64,000 bases of DNA. Source: a virus. Taxonomy: Duplodnaviria; Heunggongvirae; Uroviricota; Caudoviricetes. Positions 33,242 through 52,064 of the stretch are shown here, in pieces; within the stretch, counting starts at the first letter, position 1; each line of letters starts with the position of its first letter. The stretch is taken from the IMG/VR virus record IMGVR_UViG_3300013121_000012, positions 21,427 through 85,426 of that record. The stretch is one strand, 5' to 3'. The notes beneath the pieces are model-generated. The model was not told the DNA's origin. It did no database searches and worked only from the letters and a program-made list of their open reading frames with translations. Position numbers and translations under genes: made by a program.

Positions 33242-33244
33242 AAT

Positions 33245-33321: not shown

Positions 33322-33337
33322 CAAAGTTTTTTAATAA

Positions 33338-33411: not shown

Positions 33412-33421
33412 CATAAAAATT

Positions 33422-33858: not shown

Positions 33859-33939
33859 CATGAGTTTGAAAACGACAATAACAGTCGCTTTGAAGATGAA
33901 ATTAAATTGTAGTAGTCGACATTGTTCAAACTCACAAAT

Positions 33940-35742: not shown

Positions 35743-35867
35743 CAAAGAATGTTTTTAACCATAGGCGGATCTCCGTTTATGAATCTCGCTATGACGGATA
35801 GCGATCACATCACTGAGCAGTTACAGTAATGTCGAGAAGTTAGAAGCCAACATCCGTCAGCAATATT

Positions 35868-36408: not shown

Positions 36409-36671
36409 TGACACGAATTGTTCCAGACGATACGCGTAAAAAATGGAGAATTGTTATGCTTCCTAATAAGAAGTATGCAGTTCAAAGAAAATTCTTGTTT
36501 TGGTGGTTGTATGAAAGTATCACTGTCCCCTCCGGATTTGCTGATTTTGAAGATCTTATTCTCGAATTCGAGAAACTCAAATTAGCCGAAGAGCATATTA
36601 AAAAGAACTGCAAGAAACAAAAAACAAATAATGTAATATGTCACTACAATGACGAAGGAATAGAAGTATGA
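36408..36671 (+). CDS. hypothetical protein
   Basis: ORF. Confidence 0.3.
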   Translation: MTRIVPDDTRKKWRIVMLPNKKYAVQRKFLFWWLYESITVPSGFADFEDLILEFEKLKLAEEHIKKNCKKQKTNNVICHYNDEGIEV

Positions 36672-37663
36672 TACGACAAGTAAAAGCAGTAGTCTATTTT
36701 CATTCGAATTGTTTCGACGGAGTAGGAGCCGCTGCAGTCGCAAAATACCTCCTGAACAAAGAAGGAATAAACGTAACATGCATTCCTTATACTCATGGAA
36801 CTCCTGAAGGAGTAGCAATTCCACAATGGGTAAGTTCACATAAAGATGCCGGAATAACAGATGAAATCTACTGTGTAGACTTCACTCCTAAGAAATCAGA
36901 CGCAGAACGATTCATGAAAACTGGTGCAACGGTTATTGTTCTTGATCATCATATCTCTGCAATAGAGAAAGTTGAAGCGGATCCAGAATACAAAGCAATG
37001 TTCGATACAGTGGAATTCGACATCCATAGAAGTGGATGCGGAATTACATGGGATTACATCTCTGCTGGATTACCTCGTCCTAAGTTCGTTGATCTAATTG
37101 AAGACCGTGATCTGTACAAATTTCGCTGGCCATATACAAAAGAATTCTACCACTTCCTCGGAACTCTTGATTTTGATATCGACGAATTCGTAAAAGTGCT
37201 AGCACACTCGGTGGAAAACATTGATAATGAAAATTGTCTGGCGGAATACCTAAATAAAGGAATTGCGATAGGCAAATACTACGATTCACATATTGAATCT
37301 CTTGCGAGAGAAGCGTTTGTTGGAATATTCCAATTCGGAAACAAATTCATTCCGTTCTATAATGTTCCATATTTCTATGGATCAGATTTGTGTAATAAAA
37401 TCATTAACACAAAGAACACACCATATTGCGGTTACTTCTCGATAATGAGAGGACGTATTCGTGGAGGAATAAGAAGCAAGAAAGGACATGATGATTGTCA
37501 TATCCTTTGTGCACAAGTAGGTGGCGGTGGTCACGCTAATGCTTCTGGATTTGAAACATCTATCAGCAAGCTTTTAGGACCTATGGGAATGCAAGTTAGC
37601 GAATGGCTCGTGGCTCTCGATGATCAGGAGCTTGTTGATAAATTTTACAAGAAGGAAAAATGA
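36668..37663 (+). CDS. DHH/DHHA1-family phosphoesterase (NrnA-like nanoRNase / phosphodiesterase)
   Basis: FHSNCFDGVGAAAV (DHH motif I/II region), VLDHHI (DHH) and GGGGHANASG (DHHA1 GGGH motif). Confidence 0.6.
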   Translation: MIRQVKAVVYFHSNCFDGVGAAAVAKYLLNKEGINVTCIPYTHGTPEGVAIPQWVSSHKDAGITDEIYCVDFTPKKSDAERFMKTGATVIVLDHHISAIEKVEADPEYKAMFDTVEFDIHRSGCGITWDYISAGLPRPKFVDLIEDRDLYKFRWPYTKEFYHFLGTLDFDIDEFVKVLAHSVENIDNENCLAEYLNKGIAIGKYYDSHIESLAREAFVGIFQFGNKFIPFYNVPYFYGSDLCNKIINTKNTPYCGYFSIMRGRIRGGIRSKKGHDDCHILCAQVGGGGHANASGFETSISKLLGPMGMQVSEWLVALDDQELVDKFYKKEK

Positions 37664-37947
37664 GAATCGACGCTAAACAAGCATTTGAAAATGTTCTCAA
37701 TTCAGAACATTATTATGATAATGCAAAAGTAAAATACTGGGATTCGATTCGCGAAGACATCGAAGAGAAGATCATAAAACAATCCAAGCTCGGAAAAGTA
37801 TTTCATGAAACATCAGTTAGGAAAGAATTTTCTGGCTACGTCACAGAGCAATTAAGAAAGAATGGATTTCAAGCTAGTGAAAAAGGGCCTACATCTCGAT
37901 CAGAAGAGTTTGTTAAAATAACAATAGGATGGCAGAACGAAAAATGA
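37660..37947 (+). CDS. hypothetical protein
   Basis: ORF. Confidence 0.3.
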   Translation: MRIDAKQAFENVLNSEHYYDNAKVKYWDSIREDIEEKIIKQSKLGKVFHETSVRKEFSGYVTEQLRKNGFQASEKGPTSRSEEFVKITIGWQNEK

Positions 37948-38180
37948 CAGAAACAAAACCAAATTTCACTCATATGTCGAATGATGCATTCGAATGGTTC
38001 GTGGAATGTTACATCAATGCAGTCTCAATGGCTAGAACATCCAAATCCCTAATGGCAAAAGGAATTCCAAGCCTAGGCCAACACTTTCAGAACTACTACG
38101 GCATTAAGGATGAAGAGCTTACTGCCGAGAAAGACATCAATAAACAATTTCACATTATCAAGCGAAAGTACATAAAATGA
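37929..38180 (+). CDS. hypothetical protein
   Basis: ORF. Confidence 0.3.
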   Translation: MAERKMTETKPNFTHMSNDAFEWFVECYINAVSMARTSKSLMAKGIPSLGQHFQNYYGIKDEELTAEKDINKQFHIIKRKYIK

Positions 38181-38359
38181 TTTCTTCACAACAGCTTCTA
38201 TATACGTCGGCGATGTTCGACCAATACATGAAGAAAAGTGGACTTCGTTTCGGACAGCATTTCTGTAATACATTTGGTGTGACAGATCCAAATGTGTTTT
38301 ATGAAAACAACACAGACGTCGCAATCGCAAAGATTCGTGAAAAATACGTAAAAGATTGA
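38177..38359 (+). CDS. hypothetical small protein
   Basis: ORF. Confidence 0.3.
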   Translation: MISSQQLLYTSAMFDQYMKKSGLRFGQHFCNTFGVTDPNVFYENNTDVAIAKIREKYVKD

Positions 38360-38369
38360 AAAATATCTT

Positions 38370-38603
38370 ATGCGGCTCTGTCGCATGTACATCGCAATAC
38401 TTCTCTGTATGAATTTCGTCTCAGGAATTCCGCAGATAAAAACCGACGAATATGCAATCAACGGAATAAAGGGTGATGATGTAATTTACAACGACAAATC
38501 GTCTTGCTTCCTTATATTCAATGGAAAACGAATAGAGAAGGAATGCATACAAGAAATCAGACCATGCTTCTTTACCAAGGAAGCTTTCGTTTGTCTTAAA
38601 TAG
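38370..38603 (+). CDS. small secreted protein (signal peptide)
   Basis: N-terminal hydrophobic signal-like segment. Confidence 0.3.
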   Translation: MRLCRMYIAILLCMNFVSGIPQIKTDEYAINGIKGDDVIYNDKSSCFLIFNGKRIEKECIQEIRPCFFTKEAFVCLK

Positions 38604-38608
38604 AACCA

Positions 38609-38637
38609 TTTACAACATACTCGTTTTTCTGTATAAT
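38609..38637 (+). promoter_or_regulatory. sigma70-like promoter CCATTTACAA-N17-TATAAT
   Basis: Same conserved architecture as at 21474, 28210, 52094 and 52620; lies upstream of the RNA ligase gene. Confidence 0.5.
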
Positions 38638-38656
38638 AGAGAAACCAGGAGGCAAC

Positions 38657-39799
38657 ATGCAAGTTGACTTAAAGAAGATCGAACAATACGTTGCCTCTGG
38701 CAAAGTATCAAAGCGCAAACACCCAACACTCCCTTTGAATATCTACACATATTCGAAGTTAACTGAAATCAATAACGAGTGGGATGAAATCACAGCTATG
38801 TGCCGAGGATTAATTCTCGACTTAAACGGAAACGTTGTCGGAAATCCATGGCCAAAGTTTTTCAACATTGAACAAACTGGCGGATCAGCGCACATTAAGA
38901 AATTATGGTCGCATCCAGAAATTGGACACGATGTAATCAAACATAAGGGAACTGAATACAAGATTCCAGCGGTTGACTATGTTGCTTATGAAAAAATGGA
39001 CGGATCAATCCTCTATGGTTGCCGTTATTTTGACCAAATGGTCTTAGCATCAAAGGGTTCGTTCGAATCTGATCAAGTAAAAGTTGGAGAAAAAATCCTT
39101 AAGGAAAAGTACCCAACATTTATGGTGCCAGAAGGACATACGTTCATCTGGGAAATCATTTATCCAGCGAACCGGATAGTTGTTGACTACGGCGATATGT
39201 GCGATCTAGTTCTTTTAGGTATCCGTAATACGGATCTTAATATGGACTGGTTCGGATATAAAGAATCGTGGCTCAAAATCTTTCCACGACCAACTGTTTA
39301 CGAAAAGACAATTGAAGAACTTCTCGTTGAAAAAGACCGCAAGGACTTCATCAACAAAGAAGGATTCGTAATCCATTTTGAAAATGGCGAAAAGGTTAAG
39401 ATTAAGTATGAAGCTTATTTTGATCTTCACAAGATAATGACTAACGTCACATCAAAGGATATTCTCGAAGCTCTTGAAAAGGGCGACTCAGTCGTTGCTT
39501 TCTGCGAGCAAAAGGATATTCCAGATGAAATGCTTGATGAAATCAAAGCAGTCGAAAAGGACTTTATCAATCGCTACGCCAAAATCGAAGAAGATTGCAA
39601 GTACTATTTGTCTGTTGCTCTCGATAAGAGAGAACGTAAAGCTCAAGCAAAGAACGTCATGGAGTTTACTCCTGAGAATTTACGAGGAATCGTATTCGCT
39701 ATGCTCGACAATAAGGATTATTCAAAGATGATCTTTACTCTGTTGAAGATTGACGAAAAGATGAATCGCAAATTTATTGGAAAAGCAGGAGCGTCGTAA
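38657..39799 (+). CDS. RNA ligase, Rnl1 (T4 RnlA-like) family
   Basis: CRGLILDLNGNVVGNPWPKFFNIEQTG parallels T4 Rnl1 CRGIMFE...PMEKFFNLNENP. RBS aggagg. Confidence 0.75.
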   Translation: MQVDLKKIEQYVASGKVSKRKHPTLPLNIYTYSKLTEINNEWDEITAMCRGLILDLNGNVVGNPWPKFFNIEQTGGSAHIKKLWSHPEIGHDVIKHKGTEYKIPAVDYVAYEKMDGSILYGCRYFDQMVLASKGSFESDQVKVGEKILKEKYPTFMVPEGHTFIWEIIYPANRIVVDYGDMCDLVLLGIRNTDLNMDWFGYKESWLKIFPRPTVYEKTIEELLVEKDRKDFINKEGFVIHFENGEKVKIKYEAYFDLHKIMTNVTSKDILEALEKGDSVVAFCEQKDIPDEMLDEIKAVEKDFINRYAKIEEDCKYYLSVALDKRERKAQAKNVMEFTPENLRGIVFAMLDNKDYSKMIFTLLKIDEKMNRKFIGKAGAS

Positions 39800-39822
39800 G
39801 ACGCTCTTTTAAAGGAACTAAT

Positions 39823-40410
39823 ATGCAAGAAGTATATATCTTACGCGGAGTGCCAGCTTCAGGAAAATCAACCTGGGCAAGAGCATTCGTAAAACAAAAC
39901 CGAGATTTCGTAATCATATCTCGCGATGGAATCCGTGAAATGATCGGAGACTATTCACACTCACCACAAACAGAGAATCTCGTTACGAAGTTATATGATA
40001 AGATGGTTAAAGAACTCCTTTCTATGAAGAAGTCTTTGATCCTCGACAACTGTCATGCGCAACCAAAGTACATTTCAGAAACTCTCAAGTTGATCGAAGG
40101 AACTCGTCTCAACGTTAAAGTCACACTCAAAGAGTTTGAATATGATGTCGAGACATGCGTTGAGCGTGATGCAAAACGTGAACGTACTGTCGGTCGTGAA
40201 GTAATCGAAAAGATGGATCGTGCTATCCGCCAAAATCCATTCAAACACGTCGAAAAGATGGTGAATGAATGGAAGGCGAGTGTCGCCTCCAATCCTGATA
40301 CGAAGAGAGCGTGGAGCAATCCTACACTCAACTTCAAACCAGGATTGCCTTTAGCGGTAATTTTTGATATAGATGGTACATTAGCTCACATTTCTAGAAA
40401 GATCCAATAA
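39823..40410 (+). CDS. polynucleotide 5'-kinase domain of Pnk (T4 PseT-like), ends in the HAD DxDGT motif
   Basis: P-loop GVPASGKST. The C-terminus ...VIFDIDGTLAHI then reaches a stop, so the phosphatase domain is cut off after motif I. Confidence 0.75.
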   Translation: MQEVYILRGVPASGKSTWARAFVKQNRDFVIISRDGIREMIGDYSHSPQTENLVTKLYDKMVKELLSMKKSLILDNCHAQPKYISETLKLIEGTRLNVKVTLKEFEYDVETCVERDAKRERTVGREVIEKMDRAIRQNPFKHVEKMVNEWKASVASNPDTKRAWSNPTLNFKPGLPLAVIFDIDGTLAHISRKIQ

Positions 40411-40429
40411 TATAATAAAATATATTATT

Positions 40430-41092
40430 GTGAAAGTAAAACAGAAATGCTCGATATGCGGCCATGATTATGAGTGCTTTCCTAGTGCAATAAAACTAGG
40501 AAAAAGCACATGTTCGAAAAAGTGCTCATATATACTTCGAGGTAATAAACGAGCGAATGATTTATCTGGAAAAAAATTCAGACATTTGACGGCCATCAAA
40601 AGAGTACAAAATAAAAATGGAAAAGTTTTTTGGTCAGTACTTTGTGATTGTGGAAATACCTCAGAGGTTGATGCGAATGCTTTAACAAGAATCGACGGTA
40701 AAGGCGCTGTATCTTGTGGTTGCATGAATTTTCGCAAGGGAAAAGAAAGTTCAAATTGGAAAAGTCCAAACGAAATATCTCACGCTTATTTTTTCCGAAC
40801 ACAATGTAATGCAAAAAGAAGAAAACTCGAATTTTCTATAACAATAGAAGAAACTTTCGAGATATTCAAAAATCAAAATCGTCTCTGTCGAATCAGTGGA
40901 ATGCCTATTTCTTTAGGCCAAAATATGAGAACGATGACAGCTTCTTTAGATCGAATCGATTCATCTAAAGGATATATCAAAGGCAATGTTCAATGGCTTC
41001 ATAAAGACATCAATCGTCTTAAGAGCAATTGGAATCAAAAAGTTTTTATAGAACTTTGCAAAAAGGTAGCAAATTATGAAAGAAAAATATGA
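40430..41092 (+). CDS. HNH homing endonuclease inserted inside the pnk gene
   Basis: ...ASLDRIDSSKGYIKGNVQWLHKDIN: an HNH_3-type motif, plus a Cys-rich N-terminus. Confidence 0.6.
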   Translation: MKVKQKCSICGHDYECFPSAIKLGKSTCSKKCSYILRGNKRANDLSGKKFRHLTAIKRVQNKNGKVFWSVLCDCGNTSEVDANALTRIDGKGAVSCGCMNFRKGKESSNWKSPNEISHAYFFRTQCNAKRRKLEFSITIEETFEIFKNQNRLCRISGMPISLGQNMRTMTASLDRIDSSKGYIKGNVQWLHKDINRLKSNWNQKVFIELCKKVANYERKI

Positions 41093-41456
41093 CAACTCGA
41101 TGCGCTCTCCATTTGATTGGAAACGAGTCGGAGAAGATGTTGTAGATCCGGTCGTAAGATGGATGCTAGAACGTTTTCAAAATGAAGCAAAAATAATAAT
41201 CGTATCAGGAAGAGATTCTGTTTGTCGAAAAGAAACAGAAGATTGGCTTCTTGAAAATGGAATTCTTTATGATGAGTTATTTATGCGCGGAGAAAATGAT
41301 ATGCGCAAAGATTCAATCATTAAAAGAGAAATCTATGAAAACTATATTAAAGACAAGTATAACGTTATGTTAGTTGTTGACGATAGACAACAGGTCGTTG
41401 ATACTTGGAGGGAAATGGGAATGAAAGTTGCCCAAGTGGAACCTGGAGATTTCTAA
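41076..41456 (+). CDS. polynucleotide 3'-phosphatase domain of Pnk (continuation of 39823..40410)
   Basis: RSPFDWKRVGEDVVDPVV...IIIVSGRD...VVDDRQQVVDTWREMGMKVAQV aligns with T4 Pnk GPYDLEKCDTDVINPMV...VVVSGRE...[21 protein letters not shown]. Confidence 0.75.
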   Translation: MKEKYDNSMRSPFDWKRVGEDVVDPVVRWMLERFQNEAKIIIVSGRDSVCRKETEDWLLENGILYDELFMRGENDMRKDSIIKREIYENYIKDKYNVMLVVDDRQQVVDTWREMGMKVAQVEPGDF

Positions 41457-41803
41457 TGGCAGTAAAAATAGAACTCGAAATCAATGATAGCGGTCAGTTA
41501 GTTGACGCTATCATTGACATGTCTATGTTAGCTACTGAAAGAGAAACAAAAGAACTTCGGTTACAATACAGAAAACAAACAGATCTAGCAATAAACAAGC
41601 TGTGTGCTCTTTTTGAAAAGCATCACAAAGATTTCAGCGACAGAGACTTCCTTCTGCTAAGAAGGTTCCTTTATAAAGTCAATAAATACGACCCATTCGA
41701 AGATGTCTCTGATGAATTCATAGATCGTTGTGAAAAAGTTAACTATAAGATTCCTCGCGATTTCGATAAATCAGGTAATCTAATTCCTGATCCGTCTTTC
41801 TAA
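41456..41803 (+). CDS. hypothetical protein
   Basis: Start trimmed. Confidence 0.35.
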   Translation: MAVKIELEINDSGQLVDAIIDMSMLATERETKELRLQYRKQTDLAINKLCALFEKHHKDFSDRDFLLLRRFLYKVNKYDPFEDVSDEFIDRCEKVNYKIPRDFDKSGNLIPDPSF

Positions 41804-41827
41804 AAAACAAGATATAATGGAGTAACA

Positions 41828-42034
41828 ATGGAACCAGCAAGTGGAGTATTCGTTCTCTTAGAAAAACGAAAATGGGGATGGTTTACGTACTGGAAGCGAG
41901 TCGTAAAGATTGTAGCCGACGATGTCAATACATTCCGTCATGCAGTCGAGACAGTTCCAGGAACTGTGATTCTCGACCCCGACACAGACGCTCTTATCAA
42001 AGAAATTCCTGCGATAGGAGAGGAGACAGAATGA
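41828..42034 (+). CDS. hypothetical small protein
   Basis: ORF. Confidence 0.3.
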   Translation: MEPASGVFVLLEKRKWGWFTYWKRVVKIVADDVNTFRHAVETVPGTVILDPDTDALIKEIPAIGEETE

Positions 42035-42870
42035 AGAAACTATTGATTGCGATTTTATTCGCATCAGCATCTATCTTTTCCGCAGTCTCATGTCAAAGTG
42101 AGAAAGAAAAAGAGAATGCAAAACTAACGGCGAAACTCGAGGAAATGAAACAATGCCTCAAGTACACAGACCAAGAAGCGTGCGAAGTAAAGATCGGAAT
42201 GAAGATCTACAAACACGAGACTGGAAACTTTATCTTTAAAGATTCTGAAACTGACAAGTTTGTTTTACCGGTACCACCTCAAACAGGGCAACCGCAAGGA
42301 CAACCTCAGATTCAAACCTTTAATCAATATCCTCCAGCACCTGTCGTGAATAACTATTATCCTCCACAACAGTACCATCACGGAAATTCAGATTTCTTTT
42401 TTGGTGCGATGCTCGGAATGGCGCTGTCACATGGATCTTATTATCCACCTTCAGCGTATCATAATGGAGTAATTGTAAACCGAACAACTGTTATTAACAA
42501 CAACACTCGCTCATATTCTCCAAGCGCCGATCGTCAATGGCGACAAGAACGTACAGCAAAGATGGAACGTTATCAGCGAATGGAACATGCTCGTAATCAG
42601 CGAGCCGAACAAATTCGTCAAGAACGCCAAGTTAAAAGAGAACGTGCAGAACGTGCACGAGAATTGAAAGCGCAGCGATCTGATCCGAATTATCGCGCAG
42701 AACAACGCCGTCAGCGAAATGCAGAAGTTCATGGTCGTTCATCAAGCAGAAGTTCATCATACAGCTCAAGCAGCCGATCAAGTTCGTCTTATGGATCTTC
42801 AAACAGAAGTTCATCATACGGATCAAGCAGCCGATCAAGTTCATATTCAAGTGGCGGAAGACGCCGATAA
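42031..42870 (+). CDS. lipoprotein with Pro/Gln-rich, Arg/Glu-rich and C-terminal Ser-rich tandem repeats
   Basis: MKKLLIAILFASASIFSAVSC lipobox; RSSSY(G/S)SS repeats encoded by a ~57-nt tandem DNA repeat. Confidence 0.5.
   Translation: MKKLLIAILFASASIFSAVSCQSEKEKENAKLTAKLEEMKQCLKYTDQEACEVKIGMKIYKHETGNFIFKDSETDKFVLPVPPQTGQPQGQPQIQTFNQYPPAPVVNNYYPPQQYHHGNSDFFFGAMLGMALSHGSYYPPSAYHNGVIVNRTTVINNNTRSYSPSADRQWRQERTAKMERYQRMEHARNQRAEQIRQERQVKRERAERARELKAQRSDPNYRAEQRRQRNAEVHGRSSSRSSSYSSSSRSSSSYGSSNRSSSYGSSSRSSSYSSGGRRR
42747..42860 (+). repeat. 2 x ~57-nt tandem direct repeat (inside lipoprotein gene)
   Basis: cagaagttcatcatac(a/g)g(c/a)tcaagcagccgatcaagttc... occurs twice. Confidence 0.6.
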
Positions 42871-42907
42871 AATTCAGAGAGGAGATTCTCCTCTCAACGC
42901 AATACTA

Positions 42908-43366
42908 ATGAAAGAGGATTCTCTTTCTGACTGGAAAACAATGGCAGACATAAAACAGATCGCTCCACTAAAACCTATTGCCGCAGATGGAATACCGACA
43001 ATTTTCAAATTATTGTCCGGAGTCGCAGCACAAGGTTTATATCATCTTCCAATGGGAGCAGACATCGTAAAAGCCGGAGTGAGTTCTAGAGGATATTCTA
43101 CTTTCGAAGAAGAAATACTTAAAATAAAAACCGCTATGAAATGCAACGCAAAAGAAACCGCTGAAAAAATTCTAGAATGCTTGGACATAATCCAAGAATC
43201 TGCTGAAGAATTAGAAGAGAATCCTGATGAAACGCAAGTCGAAGAATTGTCAGCGAGAATTTACTCGGCGAATCAAGACATCATAAAAATCATGAATGCG
43301 TTCAGTGTTTCCGACGCAGAATACAGAAAGAAATTAAAGGCGATGCCAAGGAAGAAGTTCATATAA
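42908..43366 (+). CDS. hypothetical protein
   Basis: Start trimmed; the upstream part of the track ORF is an out-of-frame read-through of the lipoprotein repeats. Confidence 0.35.
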   Translation: MKEDSLSDWKTMADIKQIAPLKPIAADGIPTIFKLLSGVAAQGLYHLPMGADIVKAGVSSRGYSTFEEEILKIKTAMKCNAKETAEKILECLDIIQESAEELEENPDETQVEELSARIYSANQDIIKIMNAFSVSDAEYRKKLKAMPRKKFI

Positions 43367-43611
43367 TGCCATTCTTCAGAAAAATCACTAAGACTCGTCA
43401 AGTTCACTATATACATAATAGTGGGCGAGATGCTTCTTACAAAGCGTCGAAGTCTCAAAAAGAAATTATAGAAGATCTAGAAGAATCAAATAATATTCTG
43501 ATTGAAGAGAATATGGAACTAAAGACAAAACTGTTAGCGGTTGAATTTGTTTTAACTGTTACTGGTCTTTTATTCGGCTGGTTCTTAAACAAAACCTATC
43601 GTTGGTTTTAA
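43366..43611 (+). CDS. small membrane-anchored protein
   Basis: C-terminal TM segment. Confidence 0.3.
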   Translation: MPFFRKITKTRQVHYIHNSGRDASYKASKSQKEIIEDLEESNNILIEENMELKTKLLAVEFVLTVTGLLFGWFLNKTYRWF

Positions 43612-43620
43612 GAAGGTAAT

Positions 43621-44679
43621 ATGGAATGGAAAGTATACAAAAGCAAAGTTGAAGTCTTTCCTCATAAAGGGGCAGACAAACTAGAACTCGTAAAAGCGGG
43701 ACTATATCAGTTCGTCACGCAAAAAGGACTATATAAAACAGGCGACGATGCATTCGTTATACCTGAGAAAAGTGTTCTACCAGATGCCCTAAAACCGCAT
43801 TGGGAACAGTTCCTGAAAGGACCGGATAAAAACCGCGTAGGTTCTATTCGTCTCAGAAATGAAGCATCTCAAGGAATTCTGCTTTCAATGGACAAAGCAA
43901 AAGAAATATTTGCTGACATCGAAACAGCGGAATATGGAACGGACGTAAGTGAATTCCTCGGAATTACAAAATACGAACCACCAATTCCTCCACAATTCGC
44001 CGGTCAAATGAAACCACTTCAAGGAGAGAAACACTTCTTCGATTGTACTCATTTCAGTATCTATGAAAATGAATTCAGAGAAGAGGACGATGTTATCGTC
44101 ACAGAGAAACTTCACGGAACACAATGTAACTATCAATATAACATCCTTACTGGCGAAGAACAAATCACATCGAAAGGATTACTTCAAAAAGATATTTGCA
44201 TTGTTGAAAATCCAGACAACATTTACTGGAGGGCAATCCGTGAAAGCAAAGTAAAAGAATGGATCGACGAATGGATCTCATGTCTTCCTGCCGGAGATGA
44301 ATTCAAAAAAGTTCAAATAACTGGAGAAGTTATTCCGTGTCAAAAAGGATATTCTTATGGTCTAACGAAACCAAAGTTCTTCATTTTTAACATTGCAGTA
44401 TGGGAAGTTGATGAATCATTTTCAACGTGGTTCCCGGATGAAGATGAGATACTTCCATTCGACAAAGCTCCAATTCTTTTCGCTGGAAAATATGCTGATG
44501 TTTGTTACAGACTCCAAGAGATGTGCGAAGGAATGGAAACGGTTTCTGGAAAAGGATTACACATCCGCGAAGGAATCGTTGTTCGTCCAGTTCCAGATCG
44601 CAGAACACATTCTGGTGAATGGCTTCGTTTGAAAGTCATCAATCCAAAATACAAAGAGGATGGAGAAGAGTTGTCATGA
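43621..44679 (+). CDS. ATP-dependent RNA/DNA ligase-family nucleotidyltransferase (Rnl2-like motifs)
   Basis: TEKLHGTQ (motif I, KxHG as in Rnl2 KIHGTN), EGIVVRP (motif IV) and WLRLKVINPKYK (motif V). Confidence 0.45.
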   Translation: MEWKVYKSKVEVFPHKGADKLELVKAGLYQFVTQKGLYKTGDDAFVIPEKSVLPDALKPHWEQFLKGPDKNRVGSIRLRNEASQGILLSMDKAKEIFADIETAEYGTDVSEFLGITKYEPPIPPQFAGQMKPLQGEKHFFDCTHFSIYENEFREEDDVIVTEKLHGTQCNYQYNILTGEEQITSKGLLQKDICIVENPDNIYWRAIRESKVKEWIDEWISCLPAGDEFKKVQITGEVIPCQKGYSYGLTKPKFFIFNIAVWEVDESFSTWFPDEDEILPFDKAPILFAGKYADVCYRLQEMCEGMETVSGKGLHIREGIVVRPVPDRRTHSGEWLRLKVINPKYKEDGEELS

Positions 44680-45065
44680 GAAGTATAAGACTTGAAAAAA
44701 TCTGGTGGTATCGCGGTTACAAATGCGCGGTCATCTTAACAAGAACAAGAGAAGAAAATTGGAGATGCGGTTACGTACGCGTTACTCGTTTCCATAACGC
44801 GTTCGAAGAAGATTACGAACTCATGCCAAAGACAAGTATTCACGAAGGTCTTAGCGATTCAGGTTATGATCTTCCGTTCCAACGAGCTTCTGTTTGGCAG
44901 AAATTTCTTAATTGGCTTGGTGGAAAATTCAAGCTTACTTGGTGGTTCGGATTCGACTGCGCTCATGCAGTTGATGAAGGCAACCCAAAAGATATCGATT
45001 TCTGCATAAAGGAATGTGAAGGATTGGTCGATGACTTGATCCTCATGCAAAAAGGCGAGTTATGA
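44676..45065 (+). CDS. hypothetical protein
   Basis: Start trimmed. Confidence 0.3.
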   Translation: MRSIRLEKIWWYRGYKCAVILTRTREENWRCGYVRVTRFHNAFEEDYELMPKTSIHEGLSDSGYDLPFQRASVWQKFLNWLGGKFKLTWWFGFDCAHAVDEGNPKDIDFCIKECEGLVDDLILMQKGEL

Positions 45066-45367
45066 TCGTTAAAGCGAGAAGAATTGAATCGGAAGAATTC
45101 TTTTTTTACGACGGCACACAAGAATCTTTCGAGGAATTTCTTAAATGGGTTCCTCCAATGTACTACATCAATGGATGTCCGCAAAAAGGAAGTGTAGAAA
45201 GACGCAACGAAGGAAAAGGATCAGACAGAGAAATCTGGTGCTCAGGATGGAAACAATTCATTCGAATAAAACCTAATTTCTACGTTCATAAAAAATCATT
45301 TCCATCCGACTCGTGTATTTGGTCAGAAGAAAAATTCAAACAATATTACAAGAAGACACGAAAATGA
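45062..45367 (+). CDS. hypothetical protein
   Basis: ORF. Confidence 0.3.
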   Translation: MIVKARRIESEEFFFYDGTQESFEEFLKWVPPMYYINGCPQKGSVERRNEGKGSDREIWCSGWKQFIRIKPNFYVHKKSFPSDSCIWSEEKFKQYYKKTRK

Positions 45368-45579
45368 TCAAAGCAATCAGAAGATGGTGGATAAAAACTG
45401 GAATCGACGCCTGTTACAAAGAATACGAAAATCTGAATCATTTTTGGAAGTTCGAATGTTCTAATTTTTTTAGAGGGCCACAATCGGCAAAAAGAAATCG
45501 TGTGCGAGCTCATCAATGGCAACATAGAATAGATGAAAGACTCGATAAACTCGAAGCAAAATTGAAGGAACTAAAATGA
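45364..45579 (+). CDS. hypothetical small protein
   Basis: Start trimmed. Confidence 0.3.
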   Translation: MIKAIRRWWIKTGIDACYKEYENLNHFWKFECSNFFRGPQSAKRNRVRAHQWQHRIDERLDKLEAKLKELK

Positions 45580-46379
45580 ATAACAGCAAAGACAGTCTCG
45601 GCGATCGCATGAAGGGATATGAAAATATCTGGAAGACAAAACTTCCACGTCGCCTTCCAATGATCATGAGAGTGGATGGAAAAGCATTTCACACATACAC
45701 TCGCGACTGTGAAAAACCATTCGATAAAAGACTTGCTGATCTTATGGATGCAACAGCGAAGCATCTTTGTGAGAATATCCAGGGTGCTCAGATCGCATAC
45801 GTTCAAAGTGATGAGATAACAATTCTCGTTCATGACTACAAGACTCTTCAGAGTGATGCGTGGTTCGATAAAGAACTTCAGAAGATGTGTTCAATCTCTG
45901 CGGCATTAGCAAGTACGTTCTTTACTGTTAATAGCCACAAATTGTGGAAATATGATGATGCAGATCTACCGTCTGGAATGAACAGAATCAAAACTGCTCT
46001 CTTTGATTCTCGTTGCTTCATTGTACCAGAACATGACGTTGTCAACAACTTTATTTGGAGACAGCAAGACGCAGTACGTAACAGCATTCAAATGCTTGCT
46101 CGTTCTCTTTACTCACACAACGAATGCAACAATAAAAATCAGGCGGCTCTTCAGGAGATGATTCACCAGAAAGGCCAAAACTGGAATGATGTTCCTACTG
46201 GCTTCAAACGTGGTCGCTGCGTATACAAGAAACCATTTTATGTTGTCAGCGATGAACGCATGCACGATGAAGATGTTGTACGCAACAAGTGGATTATCGA
46301 TTCAGAAATTCCTACGTTTACTGTTGACAGAGATTTTATAGGAAAATGGTTAGCAGTTAATGAGGAAAAAAATGATTGA
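45576..46379 (+). CDS. Thg1-like protein (tRNA-His guanylyltransferase family, 3'-5' nucleotidyltransferase)
   Basis: N-terminus DRMKGYE...PMIMRVDGKAFHTYT parallels the Thg1 RIDGKKFHEFS core, and SDEITILV parallels the Thg1 SDEYSF block. Confidence 0.65.
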   Translation: MNNSKDSLGDRMKGYENIWKTKLPRRLPMIMRVDGKAFHTYTRDCEKPFDKRLADLMDATAKHLCENIQGAQIAYVQSDEITILVHDYKTLQSDAWFDKELQKMCSISAALASTFFTVNSHKLWKYDDADLPSGMNRIKTALFDSRCFIVPEHDVVNNFIWRQQDAVRNSIQMLARSLYSHNECNNKNQAALQEMIHQKGQNWNDVPTGFKRGRCVYKKPFYVVSDERMHDEDVVRNKWIIDSEIPTFTVDRDFIGKWLAVNEEKND

Positions 46380-46803
46380 AATAGATTTGAAAAGACTTCG
46401 TCAAAACGAAAAAATTAATTTTCGAATTGCTTATGAAATTAACGGAGATTGGATCCAAACAAAACCCGTTGAGGTATTTATTGAAACGATTCCGACTACG
46501 ATCATGATTATTGATCACATAGAAAAAGAAATAAAACCTATCAAAGGTGAAAGTCGTTTAAGCGACTATATATTTCGAAAATTACTTGAGCTCAAAAATG
46601 ATATGCGTCTTATTCTAAATGTAGATAAAGAAAACGGAGAAGTTCTCAATTCAGAAGAATTTATAGTAAGAAAAAATTCTCCTATAGCGTTTCCAAGAGA
46701 TTCATACGGAGTGCCATTTTTAAAAGAGGAAGGGAAACGATACGCAATTAATTTCGACATTATAGAAAGAGTTACTCGCGGATTAAGATATGGAATTGTG
46801 TGA
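46360..46803 (+). CDS. hypothetical protein
   Basis: ORF. Confidence 0.3.
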   Translation: MRKKMIEIDLKRLRQNEKINFRIAYEINGDWIQTKPVEVFIETIPTTIMIIDHIEKEIKPIKGESRLSDYIFRKLLELKNDMRLILNVDKENGEVLNSEEFIVRKNSPIAFPRDSYGVPFLKEEGKRYAINFDIIERVTRGLRYGIV

Positions 46804-47071
46804 ATTATGCCAACTAGAATCGAATAATTTAACTAAACATCATCTGATTCCACGAACACTGCACTCGAACAAGTGGTTTAAACAACGATACACTAAAGAA
46901 CAGTTGCATGAAGGAATTATGGTCGATCGTGATTGCCATAATGAAATACACAAGTTGCATGACAATAAGCATCTTGCAAAAGTGCTTAATACTCTGGATA
47001 AATTGCGATCAGATGAGAAGATAGCAAAATACGTTTCTTGGAAAAAGAAGAGATATAATAAACATGGGTGA
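46790..47071 (+). CDS. small HNH endonuclease
   Basis: CELCQ...HHLIP...H motifs. Confidence 0.5.
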   Translation: MELCELCQLESNNLTKHHLIPRTLHSNKWFKQRYTKEQLHEGIMVDRDCHNEIHKLHDNKHLAKVLNTLDKLRSDEKIAKYVSWKKKRYNKHG

Positions 47072-47216
47072 ATTACTTCATATTCTGGGTTTTTGCCCAG
47101 ACCGCTTCGCACATTTCAGTCTTACGACTCTTTTGTGTACAAACGAAATACTATTCACAATTTATTACTTGTGGCTTAAGTTCAGAACGTCCTTCTAGCC
47201 ACCAAAGGTGGTTAAA

Positions 47217-47879
47217 ATGAAACGTTACAAGTACCCAAAAACAATGCATTTTCCATGGTCGCCTGGTCTTCAGAACGACGACCGTATGCTTGAATCTGTC
47301 AATGTTTTTATAGGCAAAGAAGTCATCATTACTGAAAAGTTCGATGGCGAGAATACATCGATCTACGCAGATCATATTCATGCCAGGAGTTTAGACTCAC
47401 AGAATCATCCGAGCAGAAACTGGGTAAGAGCATTCGCTGCAAAATTTCAGCATCAGATACCAATTGATTGGAGAATCTGTGGAGAGAATATGTATGCGAT
47501 GCATTCTATTTTCTACAAATATCTGCCATCGTACTTTCTAGGATTCTCAATATGGGATGATAAGAATAACTGCTTACATTGGGATGAAACGATGAATTGG
47601 TTTCAAATGTTCGGAATAACACCCGTGAGACCGATCTATCGCGGAATCTTTGATGATAAACTAATTCAATCATTGATCATGGCAAATGGATCAGCGATTA
47701 TGGATGAAAACATGGAAGGATATGTTTGCAGAACGGTTGAAGGATTTCATTACGATGACTTCCAGAAATGCGTTGCGAAATATGTACGAAAAAACCATGT
47801 TCAGACAGATGAACATTGGATGAATAAGGAGATAGTTAAGAATGGCCTCGACACAAGATCAGAAATCAGCGGCAAGTGA
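47217..47879 (+). CDS. small RNA-ligase-family nucleotidyltransferase (PF09414-like)
   Basis: TEKFDGEN (motif I KxDG), EGYVCRT (motif IV) and VAKYVRKNH (motif V); RBS aaaggtgg. Confidence 0.5.
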   Translation: MKRYKYPKTMHFPWSPGLQNDDRMLESVNVFIGKEVIITEKFDGENTSIYADHIHARSLDSQNHPSRNWVRAFAAKFQHQIPIDWRICGENMYAMHSIFYKYLPSYFLGFSIWDDKNNCLHWDETMNWFQMFGITPVRPIYRGIFDDKLIQSLIMANGSAIMDENMEGYVCRTVEGFHYDDFQKCVAKYVRKNHVQTDEHWMNKEIVKNGLDTRSEISGK

Positions 47880-48366: not shown

Positions 48367-48834
48367 ATGGCCAAAAAAGAACAAGCGCAACTCAAAAACT
48401 TAATTGATTTTGATTGGGAACAAATCAAAGAATTTGTAATGAATTCTTCTGATGAGTCGCTTGTCTATGTAGGATGTGACTCAAAAGATCATAAAACTCA
48501 TGTCGACTTCGTGACTGTTGTTTGTGTACACATCGACGGCCGTCATGGATCCAGAGTATTCATAGACAAGAAACGGATAAAGAAGAGAATGTATCTTCAC
48601 GACAGACTATGGCAAGAAGTTGTTCTTACTAAAGATGCAGCAGAAAAAGTCAGAGGATTTGTCGGAAAGAAATACCTCGAAACTCACGTTGACTTGAATC
48701 CAAACCGCAAGTACAAGAGCAATACAATCCTTAAAGATGCGCTTGCTTATCTTGTTGCTTTCGGCTTCAACGTCAAAGAAAAACCAGAAGCTCATAGCGC
48801 AAGTTATGCAGCAGACCACTATTTGAGAATATGA
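48367..48834 (+). CDS. hypothetical protein
   Basis: RBS aaggaga. Confidence 0.35.
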   Translation: MAKKEQAQLKNLIDFDWEQIKEFVMNSSDESLVYVGCDSKDHKTHVDFVTVVCVHIDGRHGSRVFIDKKRIKKRMYLHDRLWQEVVLTKDAAEKVRGFVGKKYLETHVDLNPNRKYKSNTILKDALAYLVAFGFNVKEKPEAHSASYAADHYLRI

Positions 48835-50514: not shown

Positions 50515-50540
50515 GGCTCCCAATGAGGAGCCTTTTTTAT
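50515..50540 (+). terminator. intrinsic terminator
   Basis: ggctcc-caatga-ggagcc + TTTTTTA. Confidence 0.65.
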
Positions 50541-50555
50541 TTTAGGAGTGACAAT

Positions 50556-52037: not shown

Positions 52038-52064
52038 AAAAGACTGAAAAGTCCGCTATTAAAA

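What the first reader, a model, noticed from the sequence alone, without database searches (positions are those of the whole stretch)
36668..47879. Concentrated RNA end-healing/sealing toolkit: Rnl1 + Pnk + Thg1-like + extra ligase-family enzymes + DHH phosphoesterase
Within about 11 kb the phage encodes an Rnl1-family RNA ligase (38657..39799), a T4 Pnk-like kinase and phosphatase (39823..41456), a Thg1-like 3'-5' nucleotidyltransferase (45576..46379), two KxHG/KxDG ligase-family proteins (43621..44679 and 47217..47879) and a DHH/DHHA1 phosphoesterase (36668..37663). Rnl1 plus Pnk is the classic counter-defence that reseals tRNAs cut by host anticodon nucleases. Thg1-like proteins repair 5'-truncated tRNAs. 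Together with Ro60/Y RNA, the tmRNA and about 25 tRNAs, this points to an unusually elaborate strategy for protecting or rebuilding the translation apparatus.
Basis: partly seen in the sequence, partly recalled or inferred. Interest (0 to 1): 0.8.

Follow-up and report, generated by a model that had tools for sequence, protein, structure and literature searches.

The report
Jumbo-phage RNA repair gene cluster
A large phage carries, between its tRNA genes, a real cluster of enzymes that mend broken RNA ends (three RNA ligases, an end-healing kinase/phosphatase, a reverse-direction tRNA polymerase); this kind of toolkit is already described for jumbo phages, and the main new detail is that the kinase/phosphatase gene is cut in two by a selfish endonuclease gene.

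Summary
Profile, PDB and fold searches confirm every enzyme named:
- a DHH phosphoesterase
- a T4-type Rnl1
- a T4-type Pnk
- a DraRnl/NgrRnl-type (Rnl5) nick-sealing ligase
- a bacterial-type Thg1-like protein (TLP)
- a stand-alone 223-aa PF09414 ligase

Corrections:
- "Pnk 39823..41456" is not one gene. An HNH endonuclease ORF (40430..41092) splits it just after the DIDGT phosphatase motif.
- The DHH gene sits in a separate predicted transcription unit, and its link to repair is weak.

Related metagenomic phages (70-87% aa identity) keep the order tRNA array, tmRNA, DHH, Rnl1, Pnk, Rnl5, small ligase, RNaseH-like, Ro60. The TLP, small ligase, Ro60 and HNH insert vary between them. Some relatives have an intact Pnk. 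Both halves of the split gene show dN/dS of about 0.07.

The most likely function is heal-and-seal repair of tRNAs cut by host nucleases, alongside phage tRNAs, a tmRNA and Ro60 with a Y-like RNA. Iyer et al. 2021 already describe this repertoire in jumbo phages, so this is a new member of a known kind. The split pnk resembles the Aeh1 nrdA/mobE gene-in-pieces. Nothing here tests activity or targets.

The parts
36668..37663 (+). DHH/DHHA1-type phosphoesterase (331 aa). It is syntenic with the cluster but sits in a separate predicted transcription unit.
   Evidence: PF01368 29.9 bits (cutoff 28.1), phrog_4771 7e-52, DHH at residue 93 and GGGGH at 285. It is 71-78% identical in L004, L007 and L013. 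Terminator-like 38566-38584 and promoter-like 38609-38637 lie between it and Rnl1.
38657..39799 (+). Rnl1-type (T4 gp63/RnlA-like) RNA ligase, 380 aa
   Evidence: phrog_562 2.7e-53 over residues 14-364; T4 Rnl1 2c5u 9.6e-11, aligned 105-360; TIGR02308 7.6e-17 (below the equivalog cutoff); motif I K113 (KMDG), EGFV at 235, VKIK. dN/dS about 0.10 against relatives.
39823..40410 (+). Pnk N-fragment (195 aa): the complete P-loop 5'-kinase domain, plus the first phosphatase motif DIDGT with the nucleophile Asp
   Evidence: PF13671 1.7e-18; phrog_505 positions 1-176 of 295; GVPASGKS P-loop; DIDGT at 182. The rejoined sequence matches Pnkp1 4xrp at 2.5e-35 and T4 Pnk 1ltq at 3.4e-28, end to end. dN/dS 0.076 against L004.
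40430..41092 (+). Free-standing HNH endonuclease ORF (220 aa) inserted in pnk
   Evidence: phrog_3322 8e-24, phrog_374 4.7e-19, phrog_3118 2.7e-16. It is in a different frame from both pnk halves. No Rfam intron was found. The same insertion, 61% identical, is in L004 and is absent from L007, L013 and P0001-P0005.
41076..41456 (+). Pnk C-fragment (126 aa): the rest of the HAD phosphatase domain (SGR and DDR motifs). Its start codon lies inside the 3' end of the HNH ORF.
   Evidence: PF25109 HAD_PNKP 3.2e-40, positions 15-143 of 143; phrog_505 positions 175-295. dN/dS 0.071 against L004.
43621..44679 (+). Rnl5-type (DraRnl/NgrRnl) nick-sealing RNA ligase, 352 aa, with an N-terminal OB module and an NTase domain
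   Evidence: TIGR02306 6.6e-71, 239 bits against cutoff 151; PF09414 8.7e-16; PF21189 1.4e-5; NgrRnl 5cot/6vt4 about 5e-10 on residues 9-131; KLHG at 163, EGIV at 317. It is 75-83% identical in L007 and L014.
44619..45065 (+). Conserved small ORF of unknown function (phrog_2164) overlapping the end of the Rnl5 gene. Membership in the system is unproven.
   Evidence: phrog_2164 8e-15; homologue in L014. The family has 10,213 representatives with invariant RCGYV, HxGL and WFGFDCxHxxD motifs. No Pfam family and no fold match.
45576..46379 (+). Bacterial-type Thg1-like protein (TLP), a 3'-5' nucleotidyltransferase, 267 aa
   Evidence: PF04446 7.3e-30; phrog_4717 1.3e-86; BtTLP 4kgk 4.4e-61 over residues 6-262; RVDGKAFH and QSDE catalytic motifs aligned. 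Only a 50-aa remnant remains in L007, and the gene is absent from L014.
46790..47071 (+). 93-aa Cys/His-rich ORF that always precedes the small ligase. Its function is unknown.
   Evidence: 66-68% identical in L007 and L014. No significant profile hit, and no similarity to the HNH domains fused to related ligases.
47208..47879 (+). Stand-alone PF09414 RNA-ligase-family nucleotidyltransferase (223 aa from GTG 47208; the ATG is at 47217)
   Evidence: PF09414 7.8e-31 (108 bits); phrog_34045 and phrog_24030; KFDG at 44, EGYV at 170, KYVRK. AF2 pLDDT 88.4; Foldseek top hits are NgrRnl, archaeal Rnl3 and T4 Rnl2 at E about 1e-6 and TM about 0.5. The family has 5,454 clusters, some with an N-terminal HNH domain.
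48367..48834 (+). RNase H-like (PF04308/DUF458) protein, a conserved neighbour
   Evidence: PF04308 3.8e-24; phrog_11311 6e-36. It is 78-85% identical in L007 and L014.
35341..35745 (+). Phage tmRNA (context). It lies directly upstream of the cluster, and this position is conserved in relatives.
   Evidence: Rfam RF00023 106 bits; ARAGORN. tmRNAs are in the same position in L004 and L007.
50382..52037 (+). Ro60/TROVE protein (context)
   Evidence: PF05731 4e-18; PF25045 4.9e-7. It is 73% identical in L014.
52139..52293 (+). Candidate Y-like RNA: a 5' hairpin, then a long-range stem enclosing a tRNA-like module (52181-52255), behind its own promoter-like site (context)
   Evidence: Rfam tRNA 27.5 bits (below GA 29); ARAGORN calls it 'tRNA-???'; fold z-score -3.5. 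The order terminator, promoter, hairpin, tRNA-like element is conserved after Ro60 in L014.

Best explanation
This is the RNA-repair island of a jumbo (at least 207 kb) myovirus. It lies between two phage tRNA arrays and just after a phage tmRNA.

Proposed mechanism, inferred from the biochemistry of the homologous enzymes and not tested here:
- Host tRNA-targeting nucleases leave 2',3'-cyclic-phosphate and 5'-OH ends.
- The Pnk kinase domain phosphorylates the 5' end. The HAD phosphatase removes the 3' phosphate. In this phage the phosphatase must reassemble from a 195-aa fragment carrying the DIDGT nucleophile and a 126-aa fragment carrying the other motifs.
- Rnl1 reseals breaks in single-stranded loops such as the anticodon loop.
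- The Rnl5-type ligase seals 3'-OH/5'-PO4 nicks within duplex RNA (stems).
- The small PF09414 ligase adds a third sealing specificity, which is unknown.
- The Thg1-like protein refills 5'-truncated acceptor stems by templated 3'-5' addition, using a 5'-phosphate end that Pnk can supply.
- Phage tRNAs, the tmRNA and Ro60 with a Y-like RNA add replacement, ribosome rescue and RNA quality control.

The DHH enzyme and the RNase H-like protein are conserved neighbours whose roles are open.

The island has a conserved backbone (DHH, Rnl1, Pnk, Rnl5, RNase H-like) and exchangeable cassettes (TLP, small ligase, Ro60, homing endonucleases).
For: - Family assignments come from independent libraries. 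The catalytic motifs are intact in all enzymes.
- The small ligase model has an RNA-ligase NTase fold.
- Gene order is conserved, with dN/dS of 0.07-0.12, in related contigs L004/L014, L007 and L013.
- The order tRNA array, tmRNA, DHH, Rnl1, Pnk is conserved.
- There is an independent recurrence: a Pnk only 34-56% identical lies beside three PF09414 ligases, flanked by tRNAs, in L011. Rnl1-Pnk are adjacent in L012, and PTH2-Pnk in L010.
- Both pnk halves are under purifying selection between two split-carrying phages (dN/dS 0.076 and 0.071, with dS above 1.4).
- Published comparative genomics describes the same repertoire and interpretation in jumbo phages (PMC7824862).
Against: - No activity, substrate or host nuclease is known for any of these proteins.
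- The phage and its host are uncultured. There is no match in INPHARED by DNA or in IMG/VR.
- TLP, the small ligase and Ro60 are missing from close relatives, so they are dispensable there.
- Unrelated genes are interspersed, including a lipoprotein with a Ser/Arg-rich tail at 41872-42870, small unknown ORFs, and HNH and GIY-YIG endonucleases.
- A terminator/promoter-like pair separates DHH from Rnl1.
- In CcrSC, XacN1 and Atu_ph07, none of the window's other proteins is found within 10 kb of the small ligase homologue.
- The phosphatase may be impaired by the split.
- Rnl1 misses the curated Pfam and TIGR cutoffs.
Confidence: 0.65

Rival explanations
1. The enzymes are housekeeping for the phage's own RNA set. 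They would mature or proof-read the 20-plus phage tRNAs, the tmRNA and the Y-like RNA (for example G-1 addition to a phage tRNA-His, 5'-end editing, or splicing and circularisation) rather than repair nuclease damage.
For: - The island is embedded between tRNA arrays and next to the tmRNA, and this arrangement is conserved in relatives.
- Most phage tRNA genes here lack an encoded CCA, so they need post-transcriptional processing anyway.
- Thg1-family enzymes are known for tRNA-His G-1 addition (established knowledge; PMC7824862).
Against: - All 22 tRNA genes in the window have perfectly paired 7-bp acceptor stems, so nothing calls for 5' editing.
- The long tRNAs have long variable arms, not introns, so no protein-dependent splicing is indicated.
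- There is no tRNA-His in the window.
- Close relatives with similar tRNA sets lack the TLP or the small ligase.
Confidence: 0.15
2. This is a loose accessory-gene island rather than one pathway. The enzymes would act independently, and several not on damaged RNA at all:
- DHH as a nanoRNA/pAp or cyclic-oligonucleotide phosphodiesterase that blunts host signalling.
- The Rnl5-type ligase and Pnk acting on nicks with ribonucleotide 3' ends or on DNA ends during replication or repair.
- The small ligase with another role.
For: - The cassette content varies. In L014 a Metallophos gene occupies the TLP position and CYTH + HD_4 occupy the GIY-YIG position. L007 lacks the small ligase and Ro60.
- DHH is in a separate predicted transcription unit, and its homologues elsewhere are not beside ligases.
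- The literature reads phage DHH enzymes as cyclic-nucleotide PDEases.
- An ATP-dependent DNA ligase lies nearby at 54490-55602.
- DraRnl-type ligases need only the 3'-OH strand to be RNA (PMC1807946 abstract).
Against: - The thematic concentration is strong. Of the ORFs between 36.6 and 52.3 kb that have a family-level assignment and are not homing endonucleases, most act on RNA ends or bind RNA.
- Rnl1-Pnk adjacency recurs in distant phages, as does Pnk next to multiple ligases.
Confidence: 0.25
3. The HNH insertion has inactivated the Pnk 3'-phosphatase. Only the kinase domain works, and 3'-end healing is done by another phosphoesterase, for example one of the calcineurin-like proteins at 30571-31305 or 59959-60516.
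For: - The split falls inside the HAD domain, immediately after the DxDGT nucleophile motif.
- Two Metallophos proteins are encoded in the window.
- Metallophosphoesterase domains do heal 3' ends in the Clostridium thermocellum Pnkp (PMC2190708 abstract).
Against: - The C-fragment keeps an open frame, its own start codon and all its motifs in two lineages that have diverged to dS above 1.9, with dN/dS of 0.071. That is as constrained as the kinase half and as intact orthologues.
- Split genes made by free-standing HNH insertions (Aeh1 nrdA/mobE, phage 25 gene 43) encode functional enzymes (PMC2988022).
Confidence: 0.15

Closest known systems
T4 Pnkp + Rnl1 tRNA restriction-repair pathway (counter to the PrrC anticodon nuclease)
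   Same: An Rnl1-type ligase gene lies 24 nt upstream of a T4-type kinase/HAD-phosphatase gene. The essential motifs of both are conserved.
   Different: The Pnk is split into two polypeptides by an HNH ORF. The Rnl1 is only distantly related to T4's (E 1e-10) and falls below the curated equivalog cutoff. Two more RNA ligases and a TLP accompany them. The host and the nuclease being countered are unknown.
Jumbo-phage RNA repair repertoires catalogued by Iyer, Anantharaman, Krishnan, Burroughs and Aravind 2021 (PMC7824862, section 3.4.9)
   Same: The components and their interpretation match: several non-redundant ATP-dependent RNA ligases, a PNK-HAD enzyme, sporadic Thg1, ROT/TROVE with a tRNA-like partner RNA, many tRNAs, HNH domains associated with Rnl2-family ligases, and a DHH phosphodiesterase.
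   Different: That survey counts repertoires per genome. Here the genes are packed into one roughly 16-kb island next to a tmRNA. This lineage is not in the isolate databases. No RlaP, RtcB, CCA-adding enzyme, 2H or PTH2 protein was found among the window ORFs scanned. The Pnk is interrupted.
Deinococcus radiodurans DraRnl / Naegleria gruberi NgrRnl (Rnl5 clade)
   Same: The architecture is the same: an N-terminal OB-like module plus a C-terminal adenylyltransferase domain. The protein passes the TIGR02306 equivalog cutoff and has a KxHG motif I.
   Different: This one is phage-encoded. Its nick-sealing specificity is inferred, not tested.
Bacillus thuringiensis Thg1-like protein (BtTLP, PDB 4kgk)
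   Same: Full-length similarity at 4e-61, with the catalytic carboxylate motifs conserved. Homologues are annotated in 164 phage records.
   Different: I found no experimental work on a phage TLP in the paper library. Its substrate during infection is unknown. It is a variable cassette in this lineage.
Genes in pieces made by free-standing homing endonucleases: Aeh1 nrdA/mobE, T4 gene 39/60 with mobA, phage 25 gene 43 (PMC2988022)
   Same: An HNH ORF is inserted into a functionally critical, highly conserved motif of a host gene. It splits the gene into two ORFs, and the downstream start codon overlaps the endonuclease ORF. Intact alleles exist in relatives.
   Different: The target is pnk, which I did not find reported as a split gene. 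Reassembly and activity of the halves are untested.
Bacterial Pnkp1-Rnl-Hen1 repair complex (Capnocytophaga gingivalis Pnkp1, PDB 4xrp)
   Same: It is the best solved-structure match to the rejoined Pnk (2.5e-35, end to end).
   Different: No Hen1 methyltransferase was detected among the scanned ORFs. The ligase partners differ.

Membership tests
Rnl1 (T4 RnlA/gp63-type RNA ligase) | Covalent nucleotidyltransferase motifs: the motif I lysine (KxDG), the motif III Glu, motif IV (EG) and motif V (KxK) | tested here: met
   KMDG (K113), wEii, kEGfv and vKiKy align with T4 K99, E159, E227/G228 and K240/K242.
Rnl1 (T4 RnlA/gp63-type RNA ligase) | Rnl1-specific N-terminal elements (equivalents of T4 R54, K75, F77) and the C-terminal helical domain | tested here: met
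   cRGlil and wpKFFni align with T4 cRGimf and mEKFFnl. The alignment with 2c5u continues to T4 residue 356. phrog_562 covers residues 14-364.
Rnl1 (T4 RnlA/gp63-type RNA ligase) | Scores above the curated family cutoffs (Pfam PF09511, TIGR02308) | tested here: not met
   There is no PF09511 hit even at E 0.1. TIGR02308 scores 61.5 bits against a cutoff of 242. Orthologues 78-80% identical in L007 and L013 do carry a precomputed PF09511 hit. This is a divergent member, not an equivalog of the T4 enzyme.
Rnl1 (T4 RnlA/gp63-type RNA ligase) | ATP-dependent sealing of tRNA anticodon-loop breaks | not testable with these tools
   Needs enzyme assays.
T4-type polynucleotide kinase-phosphatase (Pnkp) | P-loop 5'-kinase domain | tested here: met
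   GVPASGKS P-loop; PF13671 1.7e-18; aligned with 1ltq and 4xrp from residue 2-4.
T4-type polynucleotide kinase-phosphatase (Pnkp) | DxDxT acylphosphatase (HAD) domain with its downstream motifs | tested here: met
   DIDGT sits at the end of the N-fragment. SGR, RKD and DDR are in the C-fragment. PF25109 scores 138 bits against a cutoff of 27.6.
T4-type polynucleotide kinase-phosphatase (Pnkp) | Kinase and phosphatase on one polypeptide | tested here: not met
   There are two ORFs in different frames, separated by a 220-aa HNH ORF. There is no intein (not in frame) and no Rfam intron. Relatives P0001-P0005, L007 and L013 have the single 310-314-aa form.
Rnl5 (DraRnl/NgrRnl nick-sealing RNA ligase) | Curated equivalog profile and an N-terminal OB-like module fused to the NTase domain | tested here: met
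   TIGR02306 scores 239 bits against a cutoff of 151, over residues 4-345. The NgrRnl N-module aligns at about 5e-10. PF21189 scores 25.9 bits, just under its cutoff of 27.
PF09414 RNA_ligase family (Rnl2-like in the sense of Iyer et al.), small 223-aa protein | Profile match above the cutoff, the motif I lysine, motifs IV and V, and the NTase fold | tested here: met
   108 bits against a cutoff of 27. K44 (KFDG), E170-G171, and K191 and R194 are invariant in 32 homologues. Foldseek matches NgrRnl, Rnl3 and T4 Rnl2 at probability 1.0 and E about 1e-6.
PF09414 RNA_ligase family (Rnl2-like in the sense of Iyer et al.), small 223-aa protein | An accessory nucleic-acid-binding domain as in Rnl2 (C-terminal), Rnl5 (N-terminal OB) or Rnl3 | tested here: not met
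   The protein is the NTase domain only. No PDB sequence relative was found, even with a profile. TM scores of only about 0.5 show it belongs to a clade with no solved structure.
Thg1 superfamily, TLP branch | Thg1 catalytic domain profile and closeness to a characterised bacterial TLP rather than to eukaryotic Thg1 | tested here: met
   PF04446 scores 104 bits against a cutoff of 29.2. BtTLP 4kgk scores 4e-61, against 1e-7 to 1e-11 for eukaryotic Thg1 structures.
Thg1 superfamily, TLP branch | Templated 3'-5' addition on 5'-truncated tRNA | not testable with these tools
   Needs enzyme assays. No phage tRNA in the window shows a 5' defect that would demand this activity.
DHH/DHHA1 phosphoesterases | DHH domain profile and motif, and the DHHA1 domain with its GGGH motif | tested here: inconclusive
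   PF01368 scores 29.9 bits, barely above the 28.1 cutoff. PF02272 scores 17.3 bits, below its cutoff of 25.9. The DHH and GGGGH motifs are present and phrog_4771 scores 7e-52. The subfamily and substrate (NrnA-like, cyclic-nucleotide PDE or RecJ-like) remain unresolved.
Gene in pieces made by a free-standing homing endonuclease | An endonuclease ORF inserted in a conserved motif, an intact allele in relatives, and both halves kept under selection | tested here: met
   The intact allele reads ...DIDGTLAH-FKD-RSPFDW.... The window and L004 carry the HNH ORF at the same point. dN/dS is 0.076 for the N half, 0.071 for the C half and 0.156 for the HNH ORF.
Gene in pieces made by a free-standing homing endonuclease | Endonuclease activity or homing, and reassembly of the split enzyme | not testable with these tools
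   Needs biochemistry and phage crosses.

The most novel reading that the evidence does not exclude
The island could encode a coordinated pathway that rebuilds tRNAs, going beyond T4-style heal-and-seal. The split Pnk would supply 5'-phosphate ends. The TLP would re-synthesise lost 5' acceptor-strand nucleotides in the 3'-5' direction. The Rnl5-type and small ligases would close nicks in stems, and Rnl1 would close loops. Together these would let the phage reverse repair-defying attacks in which nucleotides or whole arm segments are excised (RloC-like wobble excision, OLD-like anticodon-arm amputation). The HNH-split Pnk would work as an obligate two-subunit enzyme. A second possibility: the uncharacterised stand-alone 210-aa ligase clade (over 5,000 clusters, no solved structure) may have a distinct substrate class.
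Probability: 0.12. Interest if true: 0.7.

Novelty: new member of a known kind. Interest (0 to 1): 0.35.

Why it matters
tRNA cleavage is a widespread anti-phage strategy, and phage countermeasures are known in biochemical detail mainly from T4 Pnk/Rnl1. This island gathers three different ligase types, an end-healing enzyme and a 3'-5' polymerase in one place. Natural presence/absence variants exist in close relatives. That makes it a compact test bed for asking whether these enzymes divide the labour by type of RNA lesion.

It also adds pnk to the short list of phage genes split by free-standing homing endonucleases that apparently still function. And it points to a large stand-alone RNA-ligase clade that has no structure or assay. 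As an annotation result it is confirmatory rather than surprising.

Tried and rejected
- **Close relatives in phage databases.** Megablast of the 11-kb region against INPHARED found no match. IMG/VR scans with the Pnk kinase fragment and Rnl1 found no relatives.
- **Exact-sequence look-ups.** The window's TLP and the 99%-identical P0006 are not on record, so the 206.8-kb source contig could not be retrieved.
- **Group I intron or intein in pnk.** Rejected. The three ORFs are in three frames. Only about 39 nt of the roughly 700-nt insert is non-coding. Rfam gave only chance-level hits.
- **TLP needed for 5' editing of phage tRNAs.** Rejected for this window, because every acceptor stem is fully paired.
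- **Ligases and Pnk needed to splice tRNA introns.** Rejected. The 89-93-nt tRNAs have long variable arms, not introns.
- **The 93-aa Cys/His ORF as a detached HNH domain** of the HNH-ligase fusions seen in CcrSC and L011. Not supported by BLASTP or Pfam.
- **Conserved neighbourhood of the small ligase** in CcrSC, XacN1 and Atu_ph07. None was found.
- **Function of the phrog_2164 ORF (44619-45065).** The AF2 model reached only pLDDT 63, and Foldseek gave nothing below E 0.5. Ten relatives scanned against Pfam gave no family.
- **PDB profile search for the small ligase.** No significant sequence hit. Only the fold search placed it.
- **RlaP, RtcB, 2H, PTH2, CCA-adding enzyme or Hen1.** No such protein was seen among the roughly 70 window ORFs scanned. 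Small or unscanned ORFs could still hide one.

Full report
**Observation**

All genes in 36-50 kb lie on the + strand.

- **DHH.** ORF 36668-37663 matches Pfam DHH just above its cutoff (29.9 against 28.1 bits) and phrog_4771 at 7e-52. It has DHH and GGGGH motifs.
- **Rnl1.** ORF 38657-39799 has no Pfam hit. It matches phrog_562, the T4 gp63/Rnl1 family, at 2.7e-53. It matches TIGR02308 at 7.6e-17, below the equivalog cutoff, and the T4 Rnl1 crystal structures at 1e-10. The T4 essential residues are aligned: R54, K75/F77, K99, E159, E227/G228 and K240/K242.
- **Rnl5-type ligase.** ORF 43621-44679 passes the DraRnl equivalog model TIGR02306 (239 against 151 bits). It shares the N-terminal OB-like module of NgrRnl.
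- **Thg1-like protein.** ORF 45576-46379 is 4e-61 to the B. thuringiensis TLP structure 4kgk, and much further from eukaryotic Thg1.
- **Small ligase.** ORF 47208-47879 hits PF09414 at 7.8e-31. It has no relative in the PDB by sequence, even with a profile. An AlphaFold model at pLDDT 88 matches the nucleotidyltransferase domains of NgrRnl, archaeal Rnl3 and T4 Rnl2 with probability 1.0 but TM of only about 0.5.

**Correction: pnk is split**

The span called "Pnk 39823..41456" holds three ORFs in three frames.

- A 195-aa fragment carries the whole kinase domain and ends ...LAVIFDIDGTLAH-ISRKIQ*.
- A 220-aa HNH endonuclease follows (phrog_3322, phrog_374 and phrog_3118).
- A 126-aa fragment, MKEKYDNSM-RSPFDW..., carries the remaining HAD motifs.

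Rejoined, the two halves align end to end with Pnkp1 (4xrp, 2.5e-35) and T4 Pnk (1ltq, 3.4e-28). The only gap is at the junction.

The interruption is not an intein, because it is out of frame. Only about 39 nt of the insert is non-coding, and Rfam finds no intron.

A search with the healed sequence found intact 310-314-aa orthologues at 74-83% identity (P0001-P0005). It also found two kinase-only fragments, P0006 at 99% identity on a 206.8-kb JGI contig and P0007 at 87%. Contig L004 carries P0007 and has the same HNH insertion at the same codon. L007 and L013 read ...DIDGTLAH-FKD-RSPFDW... without interruption.

Between the two split-carrying phages, dS is saturated (1.4-1.9). dN/dS is 0.076 for the N half and 0.071 for the C half. 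That is the same range as Rnl1, DHH and Rnl5 (0.09-0.12). The HNH ORF is at 0.156.

The simplest reading is a gene in pieces made by a free-standing homing endonuclease, with both halves still selected. This matches Aeh1 nrdA/mobE and phage 25 gene 43, whose split products are active (PMC2988022). Reassembly of the phosphatase in this phage is inferred, not shown.

**Comparative context**

No isolate phage is close. The tail sheath is distantly T4-like, and DNA-level searches are empty.

The small ligase has homologues mostly in jumbo or huge phages: SCTP-2, RsoM2USA, CcrSC, XacN1, Atu_ph07 and LR7-series metagenomic genomes. It also occurs in bacterial chromosomes. The family has 5,454 clusters, about 210 aa alone or about 340 aa with an N-terminal HNH domain.

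Related metagenomic contigs show a conserved backbone with exchangeable cassettes:

| Contig | Content |
|---|---|
| L007 | DHH, Rnl1, intact Pnk, Rnl5, a 50-aa TLP remnant, the 93-aa ORF, RNase H-like, DNA ligase. No small ligase, no Ro60. |
| L004 + L014 (same sample) | DHH, Rnl1, split Pnk, Rnl5, a Metallophos gene where the TLP sits here, the 93-aa ORF, small ligase, RNase H-like, CYTH, HD_4, Ro60. |

The order tRNA array, tmRNA, DHH, Rnl1, Pnk is conserved.

There are independent recurrences in more distant phages. A Pnk only 34-56% identical lies beside an HNH-PF09414 ligase, a PHA02142-OB ligase and a third PF09414 ligase, flanked by tRNAs (L011). Rnl1-Pnk adjacency occurs in L012, and PTH2-Pnk in L010.

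By contrast, none of the window's other proteins is found within 10 kb of the small ligase homologue in CcrSC, XacN1 or Atu_ph07. DHH homologues in EL, CcrColossus, ME3 and Moabite are not beside ligases. Within the window, a terminator-like site (38566-38584) and a near-consensus promoter-like site (38609-38637) separate the DHH unit from Rnl1-Pnk.

**Mechanism**

What is shown: family membership, intact catalytic motifs, conserved synteny and purifying selection.

What is inferred from the biochemistry of the homologues:
- Pnk converts 2',3'-cyclic-phosphate/5'-OH breaks into 3'-OH/5'-phosphate ends.
- Rnl1 seals loop breaks.
- The DraRnl-type enzyme seals nicks in duplex RNA where the 3'-OH strand is RNA (PMC1807946 and PMC4408790 abstracts).
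- The small ligase provides a further, unknown specificity.
- The TLP refills 5'-truncated tRNAs by templated 3'-5' addition.
- Phage tRNAs, the tmRNA and Ro60 with a Y-like RNA add replacement, ribosome rescue and quality control.

I put 0.65 on this counter-defence repair reading.

**Rivals tested**

A housekeeping role in maturing the phage's own tRNAs finds no support here. All acceptor stems are perfectly paired. The long tRNAs have long variable arms rather than introns. There is no tRNA-His in the window, so G-1 addition could not be examined.

The "loose accessory island" reading is partly true. The cassettes vary, and unrelated genes and homing endonucleases are interspersed. It is the better account for DHH.

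Inactivation of the phosphatase by the split is disfavoured by the selection data, but it remains possible.

**Comparison with what is known, and novelty**

Iyer et al. 2021 (PMC7824862, section 3.4.9) already describe jumbo phages that combine several non-redundant RNA ligases, PNK-HAD enzymes, sporadic Thg1, TROVE proteins with tRNA-like partner RNAs, large tRNA sets, HNH-fused Rnl2-family ligases and DHH phosphodiesterases. They interpret these as repair of host attacks on the translation apparatus.

The present locus is therefore a new, uncultured member of a known kind. It is notable for how tightly the genes are packed beside the tmRNA, and for the split pnk. I found no experimental work on a phage TLP in the paper library, and no solved structure for the stand-alone small-ligase clade. 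Those are the parts where experiments would add most.

**Verdict**

Interest is moderate to low (0.35), because the result is mainly confirmatory.

Noticed in passing
window 52061-52293; L014 9900-10090: After Ro60 come a terminator-like hairpin, a near-consensus promoter-like site (TTTACA-17-TATAAT), a 5' hairpin, and a long-range stem (GAAACUGCGGG...CCCGCAGUUUC) that encloses a sub-threshold tRNA-like module with a shortened anticodon loop. The same layout follows Ro60 in L014. There the hairpin shows compensatory changes and the tRNA-like part has diverged. This is a likely YrlA-type Y RNA gene.
   Followed up: partly
window 33168-33496, 33771-33859, 59864-59956: tRNA architecture and anticodon do not match as expected. 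The four 'tRNA-Leu' genes are only 74-78 nt and have no long variable arm. A tRNA with the Ile anticodon UAU (89 nt) and one with the Asn anticodon GUU (93 nt) do carry long variable-arm hairpins, which is class II-like. Only tRNA-Glu encodes CCA.
   Followed up: partly
window 44619-45065: A small ORF (phrog_2164) overlaps the end of the Rnl5 gene. It belongs to a very large family with no annotation (10,213 representatives at E <= 0.001), with invariant RCGYVxV, HxGL(T/S) and WFGFDCxHxxD motifs. There is no Pfam model and no usable structure prediction.
   Followed up: partly
window 14225-15313: A tubulin/FtsZ-family GTPase (PF00091, 1.2e-18) is encoded by this phage. It lies next to SbcC/Rad50-like and Mre11-like (Metallophos) genes on the minus strand.
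   Followed up: no
window 38609-38637, 52104-52132, 52620-52648: The same promoter-like motif, TTTACA-N17-TATAAT (11 of 12 matches), recurs in front of Rnl1, the Y-like RNA and the next gene. It is conserved in L014. It may be a phage promoter class.
   Followed up: no
window 20337-21065, 49291-49992, 58871-59407, 60654-61118, 62520-63062: Homing-endonuclease-like ORFs are dense here. There are two GIY-YIG ORFs and three related HNH_3-type ORFs interleaved with the tRNA genes, in addition to the HNH ORF inside pnk.
   Followed up: partly
window 41872-42870 (probable start near 42031): A predicted lipoprotein (MKKLLIAILFASASIFSAVSC...) with a proline/glutamine-rich middle and a long Ser/Arg-rich tail sits between Pnk and Rnl5. 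It is 81% conserved in L004 and L013. A 215-aa ORF in another frame (42719-43366) overlaps its 3' part.
   Followed up: no
L014 2667-3398 and 6719-7812: In the closest split-pnk relative, a calcineurin-like phosphoesterase occupies the position that the TLP holds in the window. A CYTH protein plus an HD_4 (alarmone-hydrolase-like) protein occupy the position of the GIY-YIG gene. This shows cassette exchange within the island.
   Followed up: partly
window 22228-23580 and 30571-31305, 59959-60516: A 450-aa protein has a cytidylyltransferase-like (HIGH nucleotidyltransferase) domain. Two calcineurin-like phosphoesterases are encoded outside the cluster. Any link to NAD metabolism or RNA-end metabolism was not examined.
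   Followed up: no
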